A DNA stretch of 64,000 nucleotides, taken from a phage. Location of the stretch: the sequence record PZ534534.1; one strand, written 5' to 3'. The position numbers were made by a program, and so were the translations under genes. Shown here one piece after another: positions 26,924 through 39,203 of the stretch. The notes beneath the pieces are model-generated. The model ran no database searches, had not been told where the DNA came from, and worked only from the letters and a program-made list of their open reading frames with translations. Every line of letters begins with the position of its first letter. Within the stretch, counting starts at the first letter, position 1.

Positions 26924-27688
26924 TTGAAATTCATCTACAAAGAACACTACCACAAAGGTGTTGTGTGGAGTCTATTTGACGGGTCTGGTGGTGCAGTTAT
27001 TGACTGGGCAAAAGCTGGGTACCTGTGCCTGTGCTTTAATGCAGAAGGTGCTGACCACGGCAGTTATGCAGAGGTGATAACCGATCATCCTAACATTCAC
27101 TATGTGGATTATTGGATTGACCCATGGTTCCCTCAAGAAACTTTTTGCATGTATCCAGCTCCAGACTTTATTCTTGCATTTCCTCCGTGCACGCATTTAG
27201 CGGTATCAGGAGCTGCACACTTTAAGAAAAAGCTGGCTAAGGACCCACTGATCCAAATTAATGCTGTAAAGGATGCTCGGGTTGCGGAAGAGTTGGGAGA
27301 GATTTACGATTGCCCGTGGCATGTAGAGAATCCTGTAGGTGTTATGTCCACACTGTGGCGCAAACCTGATTACCGTTTTCACCCTTCGGATTATGGCGGG
27401 TATTTACCGGAAGATGATGTAAATCCATGGTTTCCTGAATTTATAGCTCCACGTGATGCCTATCCAAAAATAACTTGCGGCTGGATAGGTAATGGATTTA
27501 TAATCCCAGCCACAAAACCTGTCCCGCAAATAGTTGACGTGGTTAGCGGGTATTCCATGCAACACGCCAAGCTGGGTGGAAAGAGTGCAAGAACGAAGAT
27601 GATTCGAAGCCTCACACCACGTGGCTGGGCAAAAGCCGTATTCTTAGCAAACGAGCCTGTAGTAAGGAGCAGAATTAATGGGAAGTAA
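26924..27688 (+). CDS. DNA cytosine-5 methyltransferase
   Basis: Motif I SLFDGSGG (FxGxGG), motif IV FPPCTHLAVSG (PC dipeptide), motif VI HVENPVG (ENV) read in order. Start set to TTG 26924 after AGGAGA RBS because track start 26894 (GTG) lies in terminator hairpin. Confidence 0.6.
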   Translation: MKFIYKEHYHKGVVWSLFDGSGGAVIDWAKAGYLCLCFNAEGADHGSYAEVITDHPNIHYVDYWIDPWFPQETFCMYPAPDFILAFPPCTHLAVSGAAHFKKKLAKDPLIQINAVKDARVAEELGEIYDCPWHVENPVGVMSTLWRKPDYRFHPSDYGGYLPEDDVNPWFPEFIAPRDAYPKITCGWIGNGFIIPATKPVPQIVDVVSGYSMQHAKLGGKSARTKMIRSLTPRGWAKAVFLANEPVVRSRINGK

Positions 27689-29756
27689 ATTTATGGCATC
27701 TGCATACAACCGTTTCGGTGAGCCAAACCCGGTTGCAACAAGATACAAAAGTGGGGGTAGTATGAAACGAGACTATCGTGATGAAAAAGAGGTTGAAACT
27801 GTAGAGACTGTTTTAGAAAATACTAAAATTGTCCCTGTCCCACAACAAAATATCGGTCTGATGGCTGCACAATATTTTGGTGTGCGATCAGCATTGTCCC
27901 AAGAAGATGGTGTGACAGTCACTGCAACATATTTCCCATATTACGACCGCTACGGAAATCTGTCCGGTTTCAAAAAGCGTGACTGGACTAAGCCGAAAGA
28001 GCAGAAAGGGCACTGGTCTGTAGTAGGCATAGTGAAGGCTAACTCCCAGATGTTTGGTCAAAAGCTGTGTGCATCTTCCAACAACCGTAAGCAGATTAAC
28101 GTTTGTGAGGGAGAAGGTGATGTTATTGCAGCATGGCAGGCTGCATATCAGATACAAGTAAAAGGGATTCTCACCAACGCTAAAGCCCCGGCAAAAGTGA
28201 AGCAGTGGGCTAAAGAGGTCCAGGACGGGATCGACGCAGTTATCAACGGTGGTGATCTGGCAGGAAAACCCTGCCTACCTTTTGTTGGAATTAACTGTGG
28301 ATGTGCAAACGCAGTAGATACTTTTGCAAACAATGAGAAATTTATCCGTAGCTACGGAACAGTGGTCCTTGCAATGGACAACGATGCAGCTAACGAGATA
28401 GAGAAGCAAAAACACGTTATCAAAGGTGTTGAAGCCACACATAATATCGCAGCATTTTTGATGGCTGATAACGTTTACCACGTGGAATATCCTGGCGAGG
28501 TAAACGACCCTGATGGTGTAAAAGATATCCGTGACATGCTGAAGGCTAAAAAGCTGGAAGATATTGTAAACATGTTCCGGCATCCTGTTAAGTATGTGCC
28601 GGATGCTGTGTCGGATTTAGAAGACTTCTCTATCGAATCTTTGCGGAAAAAGACTTCCAACGGGGTAGATATCAGCGCAGAGTTCCCAAAACTGCAAAAA
28701 ATGCTGAAAGGCTTGCACAAAGGGACACTTGTAATGCTTACAGGTCCATCAGGAGGCGGTAAAACAACTGTAGCTAAAAAACTGGAACACTGTATTGCAA
28801 GATACCTAATGGACCCGACATGTCCAAAGGCTGATGATTACGAAGAGGATGATCGTCTATGCATGATTCATCTTGAGGAGGACCCAGAGGAAGCAATTAA
28901 CTCCTTGTATGCAAACCAGTTAGGGTTTGATGTTAAAGAGTTTGTTGAAGATCCTAGCCAGTTTTTAACTGATCAAGAACACGCAGAGATTCACCAATCA
29001 TGGGCAAAAGCTGGAAAAATCAAAGTGTTCAAACATTTCGGATCTATTCCGGTGGACGAGTTGATTACCAAGCTTAAGCAAATGGTTTGCCTGTACCATT
29101 GCCGTTATATTGTGCTGGATCACCTGTCCATGGTAATTTCAGGGCTTAATGTTAAGGATGAGCGAAAAGAGCTGGACATGGCTATGACCCAACTGGCTGC
29201 GTTTTGTAAGCAGTTTAACGTGTTTATCCTAGTGATCGCTCACCTCAAACGTACAGAGATTGTGCCTCCTAAGGACAAGGATGGTAACCCGTTACCTTTC
29301 TGGTATCCTGTGCGAAAAGAGAATTTGCGAGGATCGGCTGGGCTTGAACAGTTGAGTTGGGTAGTCATAGGTGTTGAGGCTGAAGAAATGGTAGATCGTT
29401 CTCGTGGTCGTGTCCGTTTAGTAGGTCTTAAAAACCGTCCAGCAAAAACATTGGGTATTGCGGATACTTTGGTTATGGACCCACATACAGGTAAGTTCCA
29501 TGATGCCAGTAATTGGTACTGGGACAAAGAAATGCAGATGTTTACAGACGGAGAAGGTGGGGAGGTTGTTTGGAGACCTCAGGCCATGTTTGAGGACCAA
29601 GAGCATGCAGTTGTAGAAACACCTATGGGCAAGGTTGTAGCTGATAAGGTTGTAACTCCTACTATTAAGCCTGTTGACACGCAGGAAGACCTCCAGTACG
29701 ATGATCCATCTTCTGATCCGGTCCCCGGTTTTGAAGATGATGAAACACCTTTTTAA
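27678..29756 (+). CDS. primase-helicase (TOPRIM primase plus DnaB-like helicase, T7 gp4-like)
   Basis: TOPRIM motifs NVCEGEGDVIAAW and VVLAMDNDAANE in middle; helicase Walker A MLTGPSGGGKTT and Walker B YIVLDHLSM in C-terminal half. No N-terminal zinc ribbon seen. Confidence 0.65.
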   Translation: MGSKFMASAYNRFGEPNPVATRYKSGGSMKRDYRDEKEVETVETVLENTKIVPVPQQNIGLMAAQYFGVRSALSQEDGVTVTATYFPYYDRYGNLSGFKKRDWTKPKEQKGHWSVVGIVKANSQMFGQKLCASSNNRKQINVCEGEGDVIAAWQAAYQIQVKGILTNAKAPAKVKQWAKEVQDGIDAVINGGDLAGKPCLPFVGINCGCANAVDTFANNEKFIRSYGTVVLAMDNDAANEIEKQKHVIKGVEATHNIAAFLMADNVYHVEYPGEVNDPDGVKDIRDMLKAKKLEDIVNMFRHPVKYVPDAVSDLEDFSIESLRKKTSNGVDISAEFPKLQKMLKGLHKGTLVMLTGPSGGGKTTVAKKLEHCIARYLMDPTCPKADDYEEDDRLCMIHLEEDPEEAINSLYANQLGFDVKEFVEDPSQFLTDQEHAEIHQSWAKAGKIKVFKHFGSIPVDELITKLKQMVCLYHCRYIVLDHLSMVISGLNVKDERKELDMAMTQLAAFCKQFNVFILVIAHLKRTEIVPPKDKDGNPLPFWYPVRKENLRGSAGLEQLSWVVIGVEAEEMVDRSRGRVRLVGLKNRPAKTLGIADTLVMDPHTGKFHDASNWYWDKEMQMFTDGEGGEVVWRPQAMFEDQEHAVVETPMGKVVADKVVTPTIKPVDTQEDLQYDDPSSDPVPGFEDDETPF

Positions 29757-29814: not shown

Positions 29815-30549
29815 ATGAACGAGTTCAGAGACCACTGTGTAGCCAACCACCTGTGGTCAGAGATACTGGAGTATGACGGTCAAAATCTTTTTTGGAAGAT
29901 AGACATTCTGGCAGGTAGCGGTGTAGGATATGTTAAAACTTCAGCAGGCTCCAGAGCTGACAAGGGGCAAGATGCTGATGGCAGGCCTGTAGTTAGTCTA
30001 GGAAAGCATTGCACTAAAGGTGCCCACGTCATAATCTGGGAAATGTTTAACGGCCCTGTACCGGAAGGGTATGAGGTTGACCACATCAAGGAGATAAGGG
30101 AAACAGGTGGTGTGGCTGATAACAGTATTCAAAATTTGCAACTACTCGAGCCCACAGATAACAAAAAGAAAAGTTGCAAGATACCTCGTAGCAACAACAA
30201 ATCTGGCAGGGTCGGGGTGCACTATTCTGAAGAAAGAGATGCATGGATAGCTCAAGGCACAGACTCTGTAGGGGAAAGGGTCTGGCTAGGCCAGTACAGA
30301 ACTTTTGAAGAGGCAGAGTGGGCAAGAAAGTTCTTCGAAGATAATGGTTTTTCGCACAAGAGTGGAAGAGCCGTGCAGTATAATAATACCAGCGGTTGCT
30401 CAGGGGTGAATTGGGATAAAACCCATGAAAGATGGGTAGCCAGAATTTATGTAGATGGTAAAAGGAAATGCCTTGGGTATTTCAAGAATAGGGACGATGC
30501 AATAGCTGCAAGAAAGAATGCTGAGAAGAAACAGGAGGGGACAGTATGA
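29815..30549 (+). CDS. HNH homing endonuclease with AP2 DNA-binding domains
   Basis: HNH core GYEVDHIKEIRETGGVADNSIQNLQLL; two AP2-like segments (GVHYSEERDAWIAQ..., GVNWDKTHERWVARIYVDGKRKCLGYFKNRDDAIAARKNAE). Free-standing between primase-helicase and DNA polymerase. Confidence 0.65.
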   Translation: MNEFRDHCVANHLWSEILEYDGQNLFWKIDILAGSGVGYVKTSAGSRADKGQDADGRPVVSLGKHCTKGAHVIIWEMFNGPVPEGYEVDHIKEIRETGGVADNSIQNLQLLEPTDNKKKSCKIPRSNNKSGRVGVHYSEERDAWIAQGTDSVGERVWLGQYRTFEEAEWARKFFEDNGFSHKSGRAVQYNNTSGCSGVNWDKTHERWVARIYVDGKRKCLGYFKNRDDAIAARKNAEKKQEGTV

Positions 30550-32969
30550 GTAATTGGTGCTTCGATCTGGAGGCCTCTGGGCTTTTGGAAGACCCAGATC
30601 TTTATTATCACTGCGGTCTGTTTAAAGAGCTGAATAAGAACCGTTTTATGCTGTTCCTTCCTCTAAATGACCGCACACACTACTCCGAGGAGGATATAGA
30701 AAAGGCCAAGAACTTCATTCTGGCAAAGAAAACTCTTTATAAAGATTTTGAAGTTCGCATAGCAGATTTTTCGGAGTTGGAAGGTTGGCTTACAGGCAAT
30801 TCCGACTGGTCACCAACAGCTTTGAACTGCCATAACTGCTACAGTTATGACTTTATGCTGATGGAAAGATTATCCGGTATTCATTTTGATATGTTCCGTG
30901 ATCCTAAATGCATGGGGACTATCAACGACCACCAGGTTAACCTGTTTGATACGTTGGCGATGAGTCGAATTTTGTGGCCTGATCGCCCTTTACCAAAAGG
31001 TTGTCCGGACTCTGTATTCAACCCGGTTACTAAGAAAATGCAGCCTGTTGGTCCTCACGGCCTTATGGCATGGGGCTACGCCCTTGGTAACCAGAAAGTT
31101 CAAATTGATGACTGGCGCGATCTTCCGTTGTGGAAGTATGTGGATCGTGTATTCGAGGACGTTATCATCCAGGAGCTGCTCTGGAAAGAGCTGGTAGCGG
31201 AATCAAAAGGTGTATTCTACGGCAAATCTGACATGCAGAACTTTATGTACGATCCTGCCAAAGAGAAGCCGAAAGGGTTCAAGAAGATCACCTGGAAGAA
31301 CGCATTACGCCGAGGCATGCTGCAGCACTTCCTGATGGAGCTGCAGGCCCGTCAGGGTGTGTATTTCGACATAGACGGGGCTATTGCTTTACGTGACCGC
31401 TGTGATGCGTGGATGAAAGAGATCGCTGATCGTGTTGAACCTCAACTTCCTTTAAAAGAGTTATCAATATCTCAGCGGCCTAAATTCCCTGAAAAGCCGT
31501 TCAACCAAGATGGGACAATTTCCAATAATGGCTGGAAATGGTTAAAAGATAAGCTTGGCTACCCTGTAGACATGAGCGCTTTAGAGTTCAAAGCCCCACC
31601 TAAGCGAGCATTTACCTCTACAGGAGATGTCAGTAAGATAGGGATAAAATGGTGTGAAGAGATGGGCTGCAAAGACCCCGATAAGATGGCTGATTTCTTG
31701 AGAGGCTATATTAAGGGCACCTCCACACCACAACCTTTACCTAAAGAGCTAATGGATCAGGCAATAAGTGATCTACAGCAGAAGCGAATGCCGGACTGCA
31801 AGATACCTATGAAAATCAGCAACCAGGACGACATTAAGCGATACCTGATCAGTGCTGGTTGGCTTCCGACAATGTGGAGAACTAAGGATGTAACTAAAGA
31901 CAGCAAGAAGAAAGCTCTACCTGATGCAGATGTTGATGCACGAGTATATGCATATATGGACGAGCTTTTAGAGTCAGAGTATTGTGACCTGATTATCAAC
32001 TTCTGGAACAAAACTGATGCTAAGTTCCAGACAACCGTGCACAAGTTCCGAAGCTTTCCTAACTCCGAAAGGATTAAAAAGGAAGTATTCGGGAAAATAC
32101 GTAGAAAAGCTAGGGCACTTATTACTTCTCCGCAACTGAAAGATACGTTTGGACACCTATGCCCGAATCTTGAAAAATTGAACGGAGAGATGGCTAAAGA
32201 TATCGTCTTGTGGTTATCATTGCGAAACCGCAGATCGGTCCTTGATCCAATCAAGGAGGATAAGGTTGATACTGGTCTTCTTAATCACCCACGTTTGAAG
32301 ATTGACCATAAGCTTCCTGCTAAAAGTTCTGGGTTAACAAACACTTCACGACAGAAACACAGTATTTGTGCAAACATGCCTAAACCATCTCCTAAAGTGG
32401 TTATGGGTAAAGAGATGCGTAGTCTGTGGGGTGTTCCTCCTGGATACTTTCAGATCGGTATTGACGGGTCCAACTTAGAGCAGCTTATCGGGGCTTGGGG
32501 TGCCTTTGAGTTCGACAACGGCTTGTATTATGATGTTGTAAGTAACGGGGACGCACACCAAAACAATGCTGAGGCATATACAAAAGTAGCAGGCAGAGAG
32601 GTGTCTCGTAACGACGGTAAACCTATCACGTATGGGGTTATGTACGGGGCACAAAAAGATAAAGTTGCAGATATGCTGGACATCTCTCCAGAGTTGGGAC
32701 AAAGGGTAATCGATGCACTTTGGGATGCCAACCCTGGTCTTAAGGGGCGTAAAGAGGATCTGGAGAAATTCTGGGAAGCAACGGGTAAGAAGTTTATCTA
32801 CTCTTTTGATGGTCATGCTATCTGGACCCGATCTAAACACTCTTTACTTAATGCATACCAACAGAATGGTGGTGCATCGCTGTGTGACTTAGTTGGGATA
32901 CTCATGCACCACCAAATGGTGAAGCGTGGGTGGTACGATGAAGGTGTCCGTCGTATTATCTATTACCAT
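30546..32969 (+). CDS. DNA polymerase, family A (T7 gp5-like), exon 1
   Basis: Exo I motif FDLEASGL at N-terminus; motif B RNDGKPITYGVMYG; FDGHAIWTRSKHSLLNAYQQNGGASLCDL parallels T7 gp5 segment before motif C; frame ends ...IIYYH then stop, inside motif C. Confidence 0.75.
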
Positions 32970-33812
32970 AAATAACATTGTGGCTTCATAGAGTGATCTA
33001 TGTCGAATAACCTCTTTAATTGACGGGAAAGCTAAGTTGACTTTTACACCTGAGTATGGTAAAAGCTCAATATGCTAATCCGCAGCGAAGACTAAAGGGG
33101 TGTAGTTAAAATGGCTAGAACAGCTGATTATCACGGGTATACCGTGTTTGATGATGGAACAATACCTTTATCGAAACGTGATCATACAACAATGTTTTGT
33201 TTTGATAATGGTAGAGGTTACCTTTGCGTAACCATGCTAATCGAGGGGAAGCAGTGCACAAAAGGTGTCCACCACCTGGTTGCTGAATGCTTTGTATCAA
33301 ACCCGGATCCTGAAAGGCTCACATGGGTGAACCATAAGGATGGGAATAAGTACAACAATGCATACTGGAACCTGGAATGGACCACCCCTGGTGGAAATAT
33401 CAAGCACGCCTATGATAATGACCTCAGAGTAAGGCCAGTTGGTGAGTATAATGCCAACGCTGTGCTGACAGAAGATGAGGTAATAGAGATTTGCGAACTG
33501 TTGCAGAGTGGTCTACGACAATGCGAGATTAGGGATCTTGGATATCCTTATGAGACCGTCAGGGCTATAAAGCAAAGAAGACAGTGGAAACATATCTCTA
33601 AAAACTACACCTGGTAGTAACGTTCAGAGACTATCGAAAGCATAGCTCCAACACAGGTTGGTGTGAAGAAGCGAGTAGAGTAGGCCAGCAAGTGCGGTCG
33701 AAATGGGAGGTGCCTTGTTACCAAGGCAGTGAGGTAGTCCGATCCATACAGGAAACTGTATGGCTATGCACGTAATGGTGCGGGGTAGCTTAACGACCTA
33801 CCTGAACAGATG
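32970..33812 (+). mobile_element. group I intron interrupting DNA polymerase motif C
   Basis: Exon 1 ends in T (cat), intron ends in G (...cagatg). Joined exons read YYH|DEYQLQV, restoring YHDE motif C. P7-like CAGAGACTA and TAGTCCGA segments lie downstream of internal ORF. Boundaries +/- a few nt. Confidence 0.6.
33111..33617 (+). CDS. intron-encoded HNH homing endonuclease
   Basis: VHHLVAECFVSNPDPERLTWVNHKDGNKYNNAYWNLEW is a typical HNH_3 signature; ORF lies inside the intron. Confidence 0.65.
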   Translation: MARTADYHGYTVFDDGTIPLSKRDHTTMFCFDNGRGYLCVTMLIEGKQCTKGVHHLVAECFVSNPDPERLTWVNHKDGNKYNNAYWNLEWTTPGGNIKHAYDNDLRVRPVGEYNANAVLTEDEVIEICELLQSGLRQCEIRDLGYPYETVRAIKQRRQWKHISKNYTW

Positions 33813-34166
33813 GATGAGTACCAACTTCAGGTCCCTGACACGCCTAAGTATAAGACTGTGTACACCTTCGACACAATTGAAGAATTGGAAGCATTTAAGG
33901 CAGAGCAGGAAGCCAAACTTCATGTGTTCGACGGTCATAAGTACAAAAAGGCACGCAAGGATGAGGACGGAAACGAAGTGGTTGACAGAGACGGAAACAC
34001 GGTGTACGATCCTATCCTGAACGATGACGGAAAGCTTGAACTTATCTGGAGCCCTGTGGGTGAAATGGTGGTGCATTGCTTCTGGCAAGCTTCTAAAATG
34101 ATGGGAGTCCCGTTCCAGATCACAGGTGAATACTTGTGTGGTCGTAATTGGGGTGATTGTCACTAA
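33813..34166 (+). CDS. DNA polymerase, family A, exon 2 (C-terminal motif C region)
   Basis: Begins DEYQLQV and ends ...GEYLCGRNWGDCH, parallel to T7 gp5 C-terminus ...GKMGPNWAICH; same frame as exon 1. Confidence 0.65.
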   Translation, partial: DEYQLQVPDTPKYKTVYTFDTIEELEAFKAEQEAKLHVFDGHKYKKARKDEDGNEVVDRDGNTVYDPILNDDGKLELIWSPVGEMVVHCFWQASKMMGVPFQITGEYLCGRNWGDCH

Positions 34167-36979: not shown

Positions 36980-37345
36980 ATGGAACAAATGAACGATCAA
37001 ACGTCGGTTGCAATGAACGAGCAAGAACAACCTCAAGAATTTTTCTTAGGGTTAAGTAAAGATCAAGTGTCTCTTTTGCTAGTGCTTTCTTCTTTCATGG
37101 GAAGACTTCAGGAGCTCACACAACAACCGGAGGCTGAACAATTATTTCAGGCTCTGCGTGAAGAAGAAAAATATCGTCGTTTGGACTATGCCTTAGGTTG
37201 GGTAGCTCAACAACGAGATATGCTAATGGCCCTCTCTGGGACTACAAGTTTTGCAATGGGGCTGTTGGCTCAAGTTCAGGACAAATTAATTCAAGCAGGG
37301 TTTGCACATACGGCAAACACTAACGAAGAACAAGGAGACAAATAA
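36980..37345 (+). CDS. hypothetical protein (121 aa)
   Basis: GGAG RBS; Gln-rich. Confidence 0.5.
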   Translation: MEQMNDQTSVAMNEQEQPQEFFLGLSKDQVSLLLVLSSFMGRLQELTQQPEAEQLFQALREEEKYRRLDYALGWVAQQRDMLMALSGTTSFAMGLLAQVQDKLIQAGFAHTANTNEEQGDK

Positions 37346-38571
37346 TGAGCGTTATTCAACAATTCGCTAACCCGATGAATCCGCGTGAAACTGTTTTACT
37401 GGCTCACGGCATGATTAAACGTGTCAGCATCAAGCCTATCAAAGGTGCTGATCCTACAACAGGTATTAAAACCACTGTGTGGCAAGGTAAGAAAATTGAA
37501 TCCAGCCACACCATCTCTTTACTGATTTCTGAACTGGATTCCTCTGATAACCTGCTTCAAGGTGGTGAAGAAGTTTGGATCAGCATGGGTGATAAGCTGC
37601 TTAAACCTGGTCATCAAGACTCTGTCTCTGTTAAAATTGATGACAAGTGGGAAACCGTAACGCCGGGATGGATCGTAAATATCCCTTTGAAGGCAAACGA
37701 GCATAACGGTAAGACCTATTACAAAGGCTCACTGGCTAAGATGGTCAAGCTGGGTGCAGGAGAGGCTCCAGCAGCGACTCAGCAGCAAAAACAGCAACAA
37801 GGTGCACAATCACAAGGCCAGAAGCAGAAACCTCAGCAGAATGCCAATCAGGACGTTTTACGCATCTATGGCGATGTGACTCAGATTGTTGGCAACGTGG
37901 TTACTGTTAATGACCACAAGATTGGCGAAGGTGCTATGGTTGTAACTGATGAGCAGCTTAAAGACCTGGTGGTAGGTGGTCGTGTTGCAGCCATTGTTGA
38001 CAAAGACACCGGAAACATTATCAGTGGTTTCAAAGCCTATCCCCCTAAGGCAGAGAACGGCACTCAAGGCTCTGGTGGCAAGCGTAAATCCTCTTACGAC
38101 CCTATTGGTGTGGAGACGGGACATAGCATCAACGCGTTGCAAATCATCCTGGATCGCGGGTTTAAGGTAGACGACCCACTAGGTGTGGCTAAAACACTGC
38201 ACGTAGTCACCATTGAGCTTAAGAAAGAGTATGCTCAAGCCACCAACCGAACCGAAGATGAAGTAGGTGCCAGTGTCGGTAATGCGGTGTTGAACGCTTG
38301 TCGCCGTATTGACAAGAAAACGAAAGTTGAGGATTTTGCAGCGGCAATTACTGCAGAAGCAAAAGATGTCTTGACTAATCTGGCTGAGCCGTTGTACGAT
38401 TGGATCAAGAACGGTGCTGGGTCCACTGACCATCAAGAACCTCAAGCTGCCAAGCAGGAAGCTGCTCCACAGCAAAACACTATAGACGCTCCTCCTGTAA
38501 ATGATGAGGAAGATGACCCGATGGATCAGAATCCGGCGCAGTATGAGTTCGATGACTCGATCCCTTTCTAA
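37345..38571 (+). CDS. putative ssDNA-binding protein with SSB-type acidic C-terminal tail
   Basis: Ends ...YEFDDSIPF, mimicking bacterial SSB C-terminal tip DDDIPF; Gln/Gly-rich linker QQQKQQQGAQSQGQKQKPQQ; location in replication module. OB fold not verified. Confidence 0.45.
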   Translation: MSVIQQFANPMNPRETVLLAHGMIKRVSIKPIKGADPTTGIKTTVWQGKKIESSHTISLLISELDSSDNLLQGGEEVWISMGDKLLKPGHQDSVSVKIDDKWETVTPGWIVNIPLKANEHNGKTYYKGSLAKMVKLGAGEAPAATQQQKQQQGAQSQGQKQKPQQNANQDVLRIYGDVTQIVGNVVTVNDHKIGEGAMVVTDEQLKDLVVGGRVAAIVDKDTGNIISGFKAYPPKAENGTQGSGGKRKSSYDPIGVETGHSINALQIILDRGFKVDDPLGVAKTLHVVTIELKKEYAQATNRTEDEVGASVGNAVLNACRRIDKKTKVEDFAAAITAEAKDVLTNLAEPLYDWIKNGAGSTDHQEPQAAKQEAAPQQNTIDAPPVNDEEDDPMDQNPAQYEFDDSIPF

Positions 38572-38579
38572 GGTCAGTT

Positions 38580-39158
38580 ATGAAATGCAAACGTTGTGGG
38601 GAGGACAAGGAGGCCTCCGACTTCTATACCAGCAACAAATCAACGTGCAAAGAGTGCTGTAAGAAGGCCAGCAGGGAGGCTGACCAATTTGCTAAAGACT
38701 CTTCAGAAAAAGGTGTAATACGTGTGTTGTACAAGACTCAAAAGTGCAACAGCAAGCAAAGAGGTCACCCTCCTCCGACTTACACCAAAAAAGAGTTTAA
38801 GGAGTGGCTATACCTGAACGGTTACAAAGAGTTGTATGATCAGTGGGTAGCCAGCGGATACGACAAAAGGAAAAAGCCTTCTTGTGACAGGATAGATGAT
38901 TTCAAAGGGTACTCTTTTGATAATATCCGTTTAACGACCTGGGGAGAAAATAAAGACAAGCAGACAGAGGATATTTTGTTACATAGAAGCACCAGCGGTA
39001 GACGGTGCAAAAATGTAAGGAGGTTGGACATGAATGGCAACGTTCTTAAAGAGTGGGTATCCCACAACTCTTGCAGCAGAGAAACCGGAATATATGTTGG
39101 TTACTACATTCATGAAAAAATTCCAGCTCCCGATGGATACCTCTATGAATACTTCTAA
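38580..39158 (+). CDS. putative endonuclease-like protein with N-terminal zinc ribbon
   Basis: N-terminal CxxC...CxxC (CKRCGED...CKECCKK); CDRIDDFKGYSFDNIRL resembles DRID-type His-Me finger motif. Weak. Confidence 0.35.
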   Translation: MKCKRCGEDKEASDFYTSNKSTCKECCKKASREADQFAKDSSEKGVIRVLYKTQKCNSKQRGHPPPTYTKKEFKEWLYLNGYKELYDQWVASGYDKRKKPSCDRIDDFKGYSFDNIRLTTWGENKDKQTEDILLHRSTSGRRCKNVRRLDMNGNVLKEWVSHNSCSRETGIYVGYYIHEKIPAPDGYLYEYF

Positions 39159-39173
39159 CATCTAGTTAACATA

Positions 39174-39203
39174 GCCCTGCCCGAAATGGTGGGGCATTTT
39201 TGT
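39174..39203 (+). terminator. rho-independent terminator (near-identical to 26878 copy)
   Basis: GCCCTGCCCGAAATGGTGGGGC hairpin followed by ATTTTTG. Confidence 0.55.

What the first reader, a model, noticed from the sequence alone, without database searches (positions are those of the whole stretch)
37345..38571. 408-aa protein ending in a bacterial-SSB-like DDSIPF tail
The C-terminal YEFDDSIPF closely mimics the E. coli SSB tip (DDDIPF) that recruits host replication and repair proteins, and a Gln/Gly-rich linker precedes it. The protein is about twice the size of classical SSBs, suggesting an extra domain. Mimicry of the host SSB tip could hijack SSB-interacting proteins.
Basis: partly seen in the sequence, partly recalled or inferred. 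Interest (0 to 1): 0.45.

Follow-up and report, generated by a model that had tools for sequence, protein, structure and literature searches.

The report
Unrecognised SSB of rV5-like phages

Summary
Window 37345-38571 (+) encodes a 408-aa protein ending YEFDDSIPF; E. coli SSB ends MDFDDDIPF. The window is a Vequintavirus (rV5-like) coliphage. The gene lies about 3 kb downstream of the phage primase-helicase and family-A DNA polymerase, and this order recurs in four further loci holding distant homologues. A fully annotated relative lists no SSB.

AlphaFold2 gives three folded domains:
- a 62-residue mini-OB-like domain;
- a very confident four-helix domain with no solved homologue.

Disordered linkers join them, and a disordered tail (net charge -12) carries the tip. 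The family has 238 clusters at 50% identity and no Pfam or NCBIfam model; its PHROG (4477) is labelled unknown function. Nearly all full-length members end in acidic-[ILV]-P-F, and some match the last 12 residues of E. coli SSB.

Best reading: this is the phage's own replicative SSB, a new architectural variant of a known kind. A few GenBank records already call it a putative SSB. Host hijacking is plausible but untested. Some sister alleles, and some canonical phage SSBs, cap the IPF tip with a conserved 15-residue extension of unknown function.

The parts
37345..38571 (+). Gene for the 408-aa SSB-like protein (PHROG 4477; ortholog of Bas51 bas51_0089, JLBYU08_126, PVP-SE1 gp39, phi92 gp156, ESCO5 gp225)
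37332..37337 (+). Shine-Dalgarno-like AAGGAG, 7 nt before the ATG. The upstream ORF's TAA (37343-37345) overlaps the ATG by 1 nt, which suggests translational coupling (inferred).
   Evidence: (junction sequence)
37345..37761 (+). Residues 1-139: N-terminal all-beta domain, predicted SSB-type OB fold (OB1). Basic (pI 9.1). Family-conserved aromatics W78 and W102 and basic K97 are candidate ssDNA contacts (inferred).
37762..37854 (+). Residues 140-170: disordered Gln/Gly-rich linker 1
   Evidence: pLDDT 25-35; 71% Q/G/P/A
37855..38040 (+). Residues 171-232: small beta domain with strand-strand-strand-helix-strand-strand order (mini-OB-like). Absent from the 270-305-aa members of the family.
38041..38094 (+). 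Residues 233-250: short basic disordered linker 2
38095..38415 (+). Residues 251-357: four-helix domain, the most conserved and family-defining module (motifs D..G...GH..NA and VGASVGNAVLNA). Function not assigned.
38416..38568 (+). Residues 358-408: disordered acidic tail (net charge -12)
   Evidence: pLDDT 30-48; charge
38542..38568 (+). Residues 400-408: YEFDDSIPF, an SSB-Ct-type tip (E. coli SSB: MDFDDDIPF)
   Evidence: hhalign aligns only this tip to EcSSB
36980..37345 (+). Upstream 121-aa ORF (PHROG 7310, unknown function) whose stop overlaps the SSB-like gene's start. Present in the L006 lineage (27% identity, E 4e-10). Also labelled 'putative SSB' in JLBYU08, with no support found here.
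27678..29756 (+). Context: DnaB-type primase-helicase (T7 gp4-like), same strand; itself ends in an acidic ...FEDDETPF tail
   Evidence: Bas51 annotation
30546..34166 (+). Context: family-A DNA polymerase gene, interrupted by a group-I-intron-like element carrying an endonuclease ORF (33111-33617)
   Evidence: Bas51 'joined' CDS
38580..39158 (+). Downstream free-standing endonuclease gene (PHROG 1035 'endonuclease VII'/HNH-like), followed by a terminator-like hairpin at 39174-39195

Best explanation

Shown:
- The ORF, its tail and the family-wide conservation of that tail.
- The predicted domain structure.
- The gene's position in the replication module.
- No SSB is listed in a fully annotated relative.

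Inferred mechanism:
- The basic N-terminal OB fold, possibly helped by the second mini-OB, binds ssDNA exposed at the phage fork.
- The conserved four-helix domain mediates self-association/cooperativity or a partner contact.
- The long flexible acidic tail presents a C-terminal D-D-S-I-P-F tip with a free Phe carboxylate. As in E. coli SSB and T7 gp2.5, this tip docks onto partner proteins and brings them to SSB-coated ssDNA.
- The partners would be the phage polymerase and primase-helicase, and/or host SSB-interacting proteins such as PriA, RecQ, ExoI, RecO and chi.
For: (2) Tail. It is disordered, has net charge -12 and ends DDSIPF. Of the 203 family sequences held, 153 end in PF; 13 end MDFDDDIPF and 5 have EcSSB's last 12 residues. 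In L008 and L011 the identical peptide is encoded with synonymous differences, so selection acts on the peptide.
(3) Charge layout. OB1 is basic (pI 9.1) and has conserved aromatics W78 and W102.
(4) Context. The order helicase/primase-helicase, then DNA polymerase, then a few small ORFs, then this gene is seen in the window and in L008, L009 and L095. In L009 the polymerase identity is only presumed. The ESCO5 locus starts at the polymerase and shows polymerase, small ORFs, then this gene. These homologues are only about 30-35% identical to the window protein.
(5) No alternative. Bas51's full 236-feature annotation has a polymerase, primase-helicase, helicase, ligase and exonucleases but no SSB.
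(6) Independent annotators labelled the 98%-identical JLBYU08 ortholog and the ESCO5/9/37 homologues as (putative) SSB.
(7) Precedent for the logic. N4/DUF669 SSBs were inferred in the same way (PMC4889955). The tail functions of EcSSB and T7 gp2.5 are described in PMC5928155, PMC7145534 and bioRxiv 10.64898/2026.02.22.705581.
Against: There is no experimental ssDNA-binding data.

There is no sequence-level link to any SSB family:
- Pfam finds nothing consistent in 140 members.
- NCBIfam and PHROG SSB models touch only the C-terminal 30-40 residues, far below cutoff.
- hhalign of the family OB1 profile against an EcSSB OB profile gives probability below 1%.

The most conserved module is the helical domain, whose function is unknown. 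A roughly 190-aa subfamily has only the mini-OB and helical domains, with no OB1 and no tail.

'No other SSB' rests on one curated annotation, not on an exhaustive structural screen of all the small ORFs.
Confidence: 0.75

Rival explanations
1. Decoy rather than SSB. The protein does not coat ssDNA. It uses the SSB-Ct-like tip mainly to titrate or redirect host SSB-interacting proteins (ExoI, RecQ, PriA, chi, Ung and others), shutting down host replication or repair or protecting phage DNA ends.
For: Some coliphage members have a tail identical to host SSB over 12 residues, kept by purifying selection. The extra helical domain has unknown function. There is no sequence homology to SSB OB domains.
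Against: A confident, basic OB domain with conserved aromatics is retained across the family. The gene stays next to the polymerase and helicase genes in lineages from varied, partly unknown hosts. The phage would then have no SSB of its own despite encoding the rest of a replisome. A decoy would not need about 350 residues of folded domains.
Confidence: 0.07
2. A recombination mediator or single-strand annealing protein (RecO-like logic: an OB domain plus a helical domain), rather than the general fork SSB. It would act in recombination-dependent replication or repair of the phage genome.
Against: The RecO matches cover only 74-91 residues, consistent with the OB domain alone. The helical domain searched on its own does not retrieve RecO. 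RecO binds SSB tails rather than carrying one (PMC7913777 abstract). The annealing role does not exclude the SSB role; it may simply be an added activity.
Confidence: 0.1
3. A replisome organiser or helicase loader. The OB fold and helical domain tether the primase-helicase and polymerase without coating ssDNA stoichiometrically.
For: The helical domain is the family hallmark and has no assigned function. The gene is tightly syntenic with the helicase and polymerase genes. In Vequintavirus the primase-helicase also carries an acidic ...DDETPF tail.
Against: T7 gp4-type primase-helicases are not known to need a loader (own knowledge). There is no fold similarity to known loaders such as T4 gp59, DnaC or lambda P. 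The tail and OB layout is the classical SSB layout.
Confidence: 0.05

Closest known systems
E. coli-type bacterial SSB (Pfam PF00436 / TIGR00621), including phage copies such as HK620 SSB
   Different: No detectable sequence homology in the OB domain. At 408 aa it is 2.3 times longer. It has an added mini-OB-like domain and a conserved four-helix domain placed between the OB domain and the tail. The oligomeric state is unknown.
Phage T7 gp2.5
   Same: The SSB of a replisome built from a family-A polymerase and a fused primase-helicase. An OB fold plus an acidic tail whose C-terminal Phe is the docking residue (bioRxiv 10.64898/2026.02.22.705581, read). In Vequintavirus the primase-helicase also ends acidic-...PF; T7 gp4 likewise has an acidic tail ending in Phe (own knowledge).
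Deinococcus/Thermus SSB (two OB folds per chain)
   Different: Here the second barrel is a 62-residue mini-domain that most family members lack. There is no sequence similarity. The helical domain is absent from those SSBs.
Phage N4 SSB / DUF669 group
   Same: The same kind of inference applies: a highly diverged OB, an acidic C-terminal tail, and presence in phages with no recognisable SSB (PMC4889955).
   Different: No member of this family matches DUF669 or any other Pfam model consistently. This is a different, unnamed family (PHROG 4477).

Membership tests
Bacterial SSB family (PF00436 / TIGR00621 / NF006533) | Significant match of the OB domain to the family HMM | tested here: not met
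   Pfam finds nothing for the window protein or any of 140 relatives. NCBIfam finds nothing for the window protein; P0053 matches only over residues 277-305 (the tail) at 23 bits against a cutoff of 260. hhalign of the family against EcSSB aligns only the 8-residue tip. The OB1 profile against an EcSSB OB profile gives probability 0.3%.
Bacterial SSB family (PF00436 / TIGR00621 / NF006533) | OB-fold ssDNA-binding core | tested here: met
Bacterial SSB family (PF00436 / TIGR00621 / NF006533) | Intrinsically disordered linker followed by an acidic tip ending in I/L-P-F at the extreme C-terminus | tested here: met
   Residues 358-402 have pLDDT below 50. The tail has net charge -12. The tip DDSIPF matches 5 of the last 6 residues of EcSSB and is conserved family-wide.
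Bacterial SSB family (PF00436 / TIGR00621 / NF006533) | Homotetramer (or dimer of two-OB chains) that wraps ssDNA; high-affinity, sequence-independent ssDNA binding | not testable with these tools
   Needs SEC-MALS or native mass spectrometry plus EMSA or fluorescence titrations.
T7 gp2.5-like SSBs (incl. DUF2815) | Sequence or fold match to gp2.5/DUF2815 | tested here: inconclusive
T7 gp2.5-like SSBs (incl. DUF2815) | Acidic tail with C-terminal Phe, in a replisome of family-A polymerase plus fused primase-helicase | tested here: met
   Tail. DnaB_C primase-helicase and DNA_pol_A lie upstream in the window. Helicase and polymerase genes also lie upstream in L008 and L095, and a Toprim protein plus a presumed polymerase in L009. 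Tail-polymerase binding was not tested.
T4 gp32-like SSBs | Match to the gp32 family; zinc-binding OB core | tested here: not met
   No Pfam, PHROG or PDB sequence match. No gp32 structure is among the top fold matches. No conserved Cys/His zinc cluster appears in OB1.
N4 SSB / DUF669 | Match to DUF669 | tested here: not met
   None of 140 members matches DUF669 at E <= 0.01.
PHROG 4477 (unknown function) | Full-length match to the PHROG profile | tested here: met
   E 1.1e-172 over 1-408 against profile positions 1-393 of 393. Short and distant relatives match the same PHROG.

The most novel reading that the evidence does not exclude
PHROG 4477 is a distinct, uncharacterised class of viral SSB. 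Its family-defining four-helix domain has no solved homologue and provides a new mode of cooperative assembly or partner recruitment. The state of its C-terminus works as a switch: either a free IPF tip identical or nearly identical to the host's, or the same tip capped by a conserved 15-residue extension that also occurs on canonical EcSSB-type phage SSBs. The switch would control access of host SSB-interacting proteins, or of SSB-sensing defence systems, to phage ssDNA.
Probability: 0.2. Interest if true: 0.65.

Novelty: new variant of a known kind. Interest (0 to 1): 0.4.

Why it matters
It fills a gap in the replisome of a large group of phages that are relevant to therapy and biocontrol: 359 deposited rV5, PVP-SE1, CR3, phi92 and ESCO5-type genomes carry the gene, and most annotate it as 'hypothetical'. 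It also defines a 238-cluster protein family that Pfam and NCBIfam do not cover and that PHROGs labels unknown function. Phage SSBs activate several bacterial defence systems (Retron-Eco8 and DARNA abstracts; AbpAB title), and SSB tails govern recombineering compatibility (ETfinder abstract). Knowing which gene is the SSB in these phages is therefore useful in practice. The four-helix domain and the extension beyond IPF are concrete new handles for SSB biochemistry.

Tried and rejected
- Sequence routes to a known family all failed: Pfam on the protein and on 140 relatives, NCBIfam, PADLOC, PDB sequence search with the protein, with the family profile and with the tail alone, and hhalign against EcSSB and against an 63-sequence EcSSB-type OB profile. 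I therefore do not file it as a member of PF00436.
- The marginal Pfam DCX2_DCDC1 hit (E 0.21) and the D7 salivary protein PDB hit (E 0.18) were dismissed as noise.
- I tested whether the 15-aa extension beyond IPF in sister alleles is a by-product of the overlapping downstream endonuclease gene, and rejected this. All four combinations of endonuclease present or absent and extension present or absent exist: window, L005, JLBYU08 and L006. Canonical SSBs also carry the extension with no overlapping ORF and with synonymous variation.
- I tested whether the tail was recently transferred from host ssb. Twelve identical residues with 6 of 12 codons differing argue for selection on the peptide, but the stretch is too short to exclude an old transfer.
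- The upstream 121-aa ORF, labelled 'putative SSB' in JLBYU08, has no Pfam or NCBIfam hit and an unknown-function PHROG, and it is not conserved in the phi92/ESCO5 lineage. I found no support for that label.
- Literature searches found no characterisation of this protein and no mention of the extension peptide.

Full report
OBSERVATION. The ORF is real and lies at the stated coordinates. Window 37345..38571 (+) is an ATG-initiated ORF of 408 codons ending ...NPAQYEFDDSIPF*, and the reverse strand is closed. An AAGGAG sits 7 nt upstream, and the stop of the preceding 121-aa ORF overlaps the ATG by one base (TAATG). I fetched E. coli K-12 ssb instead of relying on memory: it ends ...EPPMDFDDDIPF. 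The window tail matches 5 of its last 6 and 6 of its last 9 residues. It is the only one of the window's 347 stop-to-stop segments of at least 60 aa that ends [ILVM]PF.

WHERE IT IS. The window is a Vequintavirus (rV5-like) coliphage. The gene is 97-98% identical at the DNA level to phages nom, WalterGehring (Bas51), slur16, V18 and others, and 116 records match. In Bas51 the ortholog is bas51_0089, 'hypothetical protein'. It lies on the same strand as, and about 3 kb downstream of, the primase-helicase and the DNA polymerase. In the window the primase-helicase is 27678-29756 (DnaB_C/AAA_25). The family-A polymerase starts at 30546. It is split by a group-I-intron-like element that carries an endonuclease ORF. 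The full Bas51 annotation of 236 features lists a polymerase, primase-helicase, a second helicase, ligase, exonucleases, EndoVII and ribonucleotide reductases, but no SSB.

THE FAMILY. A word-indexed search gave 56 homologues down to 30% identity. An exhaustive HMM search with their alignment gave 238 clusters at 50% identity with E<=1e-3. tblastn finds the gene in 359 deposited phage genomes. All are large myoviruses of the rV5, PVP-SE1, CR3/phiTE, phi92 and ESCO5 groups. Most records say 'hypothetical', but JLBYU08 (98% identical), ESCO5/9/37 and one Klebsiella phage call it a (putative) SSB. The idea therefore already exists in annotation, though I found no paper that characterises the protein. 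All members tested fall in PHROG 4477, 'unknown function'. None of 140 members matches any Pfam family consistently. NCBIfam and PADLOC give nothing apart from sub-threshold matches to SSB models over the last 30-40 residues.

THE TAIL IS A FAMILY HALLMARK. Position -3 is I, L or V; positions -4 to -6 are mostly Asp; and 46 members end DDDIPF. Thirteen end MDFDDDIPF, and five have EcSSB's last 12 residues exactly. Among the 147 representatives from the exhaustive search, 109 end in PF; the rest are mainly fragments or end in LPW or LDF. In the phi92-type locus L008 and in ESCO5 (L011), the 12 identical residues are encoded with synonymous differences from E. coli ssb: 6 of 12 codons differ in L008. 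The peptide itself is therefore under selection.

STRUCTURE. AlphaFold2 on a 33-sequence alignment gave a mean pLDDT of 75.5. It predicts three well-folded domains joined by disordered segments:
- residues 1-139: an all-beta domain (pLDDT 82-93);
- residues 140-169: a disordered Gln/Gly-rich linker;
- residues 171-232: a small domain with strand-strand-strand-helix-strand-strand order (pLDDT 81-85);
- residues 237-250: disordered;
- residues 253-355: four long helices (pLDDT 87-96);
- residues 363-402: a disordered acidic tail.

- PriB, RPA and Stn1 follow.

Alignments of 79-86 residues must come from the 139-residue N-terminal domain, because the middle domain has only 62 residues. Foldseek is weak (E about 0.02) but agrees: D. 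radiodurans SSB is first, followed by RPA, phage DUF2815 and lactococcal phage p2 SSB. OB1 is basic (pI 9.1) and has family-conserved W78, W102 and K97; the tail has a net charge of -12. The middle domain has classical OB strand order and is probably a mini-OB. That assignment is inferred, and the domain is missing from the 270-305-aa forms that make up most of the family.

NO SEQUENCE HOMOLOGY TO KNOWN SSB CORES. hhalign of the 140-sequence family profile against EcSSB aligns only the eight-residue tip (DfDDDIPF, probability 82%). I also built an OB-only profile from 63 unique EcSSB-type phage SSBs retrieved from IMG/VR. Against it the family's OB1 and middle-domain profiles score below 1% probability. 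The protein works like an SSB in layout, but it fails the sequence test for membership of PF00436.

CONTEXT IS CONSERVED FAR BEYOND THE GENUS. The order helicase/primase-helicase, then DNA polymerase, then a few small ORFs, then this gene recurs in three distant loci:
- L008: phi92-like, 305-aa form;
- L009: 276-aa form, where the polymerase identity is only presumed;
- L095: 275-aa form.
The ESCO5 locus starts at the polymerase and shows polymerase, small ORFs, then this gene. These homologues are only about 30-35% identical to the window protein.

INTERPRETATION. The evidence has five strands: an SSB-like OB fold, the classical basic-core and acidic-IPF-tail layout, conserved placement next to the polymerase and helicase genes, no SSB listed in a curated relative, and independent annotators reaching the same call. 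Together these make 'the phage's own replicative SSB' the best explanation, at a confidence of about 0.75. Kazlauskas et al. applied the same logic to N4/DUF669 SSBs (PMC4889955).

What the tail binds is inferred. In E. coli the tip recruits many genome-maintenance proteins (PMC7145534; PMC5928155). In T7 the acidic tail and its terminal Phe contact the phage polymerase and helicase-primase (bioRxiv 10.64898/2026.02.22.705581). The replisome here is T7-like (PolA plus fused primase-helicase), and the Vequintavirus primase-helicase itself ends ...FEDDETPF, which hints at phage-internal tail docking. The 12 of 12 identity with host SSB in phi92/ESCO5-type phages hints at host partners. Both may hold.

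The SSB and OB prediction and the 'extra domain' inference are supported. The rival readings (pure decoy, RecO-like mediator, replisome organiser) are each less likely, for the reasons given under their entries.

A SIDE FINDING WORTH FOLLOWING. About 10% of family members do not stop at IPF. These include common Vequintavirus alleles: 32 phage records carry the extended junction and 18 carry the window-type junction. They continue with a conserved peptide of about 15 residues, such as APVGLQYGKSRIHAL, SPVGLQYGKHRVYIL or AYAGLQYATHAIHCLY. This is not a side-effect of the neighbouring endonuclease gene, because all four combinations of endonuclease and extension occur.

Ten of the 63 unique canonical EcSSB-type phage SSBs carry the same kind of extension: DDDIPF-APIGLPYPRHAIYVI or DDDIPF-APVTLPFPRHAIHAI. 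In those genes no ORF overlaps the extension, and the variation within each subtype is mostly synonymous. A full-text search for the peptide found nothing relevant. Structural work on E. coli SSB-Ct complexes indicates that the free carboxylate of the last Phe is needed for canonical docking (own knowledge). On that basis the extension should change what the tail can bind. Its function is unknown.

VERDICT. The feature is real and correctly observed. It is most likely the unannotated SSB of rV5-like phages: a new architectural variant (OB, mini-OB, novel four-helix domain, bacterial-type SSB tip) of a well-known kind of protein. Interest is moderate at 0.4. It is useful for annotation and for work on defence triggers, and it leaves two open biochemical questions: the helical domain and the capped tail.

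Noticed in passing
L005 4228-4272 (sister allele of the window gene); L006 9171-9218; canonical phage SSB loci L013, L015, L019, L047, L048, L053, L063, L064, L071, L082 (last 15 codons). Not present in the window allele, which stops at 38571.: A conserved extension of about 15 aa follows the IPF tip: IPF-A-[PY]-x-x-L-[PQ]-[YF]-x-x-[HS]-x-I-[YH]-x-[LI]. It occurs in about 10% of this family and in 10 of 63 unique canonical EcSSB-type phage SSBs. It is under purifying selection in its own frame and is independent of the downstream endonuclease gene. It removes the free Phe carboxylate. Its function is unknown, and the searchable literature does not mention it.
   Followed up: partly
window 27678-29756 (last 8 codons, about 29730-29753): The DnaB-type primase-helicase ends in an acidic ...PVPGFEDDETPF tail, and Bas51's does too. 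Distant relatives end ...EGSY or ...PNKDF. This recalls T7, where both gp4 and gp2.5 have acidic tails ending in Phe that dock on the polymerase.
   Followed up: partly
window 38550-38640 and 38580-39158: A free-standing endonuclease gene (PHROG 1035, HNH/EndoVII-like) sits 8 nt after the SSB-like gene. The junction is the only stretch that cannot be aligned between the window allele and the L005 allele (88 nt against 143 nt). JLBYU08 lacks the endonuclease gene altogether. The 3' end of this gene therefore looks like a homing or recombination hotspot.
   Followed up: partly
window 36980-37345: A 121-aa helical-looking ORF (PHROG 7310, unknown function) has a stop that overlaps the SSB-like gene's start. 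It is homologous to the ORF in the same position in L006 (27% identity, E 4e-10). The phi92/ESCO5 lineage has an unrelated 130-aa ORF there instead. JLBYU08 annotates it as 'putative SSB'; I found no support for that.
   Followed up: partly
P0126, P0167, P0182, P0186, P0189, P0190 (L093 1545-2117 for P0126): A subfamily of about 190-200 aa consists only of a mini-OB-like domain plus the four-helix domain, with no N-terminal OB domain and no acidic tail. The helical domain can therefore work without the SSB-type tail.
   Followed up: partly
window 32960-33762 (intron-like), 33111-33617 (endonuclease ORF), inside the polymerase gene 30546-34166: The family-A DNA polymerase gene is interrupted by a group-I-intron-like element (Rfam RF00028, 29.4 bits, E 3e-05, below the gathering score) that carries an endonuclease ORF. 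This matches the two-piece 'joined' polymerase CDS in Bas51.
   Followed up: partly
alignment A1: P0040-P0043 compared with P0010-P0035: The gene is a mosaic. P0040-P0043 have a clearly different N-terminal OB domain, yet their linker and middle domain are nearly identical to those of other alleles. Different C-terminal tail types (PQQNTVDAPP... and DPGTLENPQ...WDWDESIPF) are shuffled among backbones. This points to domain-wise recombination within the gene.
   Followed up: no
phage records MG0656xx: Between 16 and 21 records named 'Campylobacter phage', with host given as C. jejuni, are 97-99% identical to E. coli rV5-like phages across this gene. This suggests mislabelled hosts or contaminated lysates in that submission set.
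   Followed up: no
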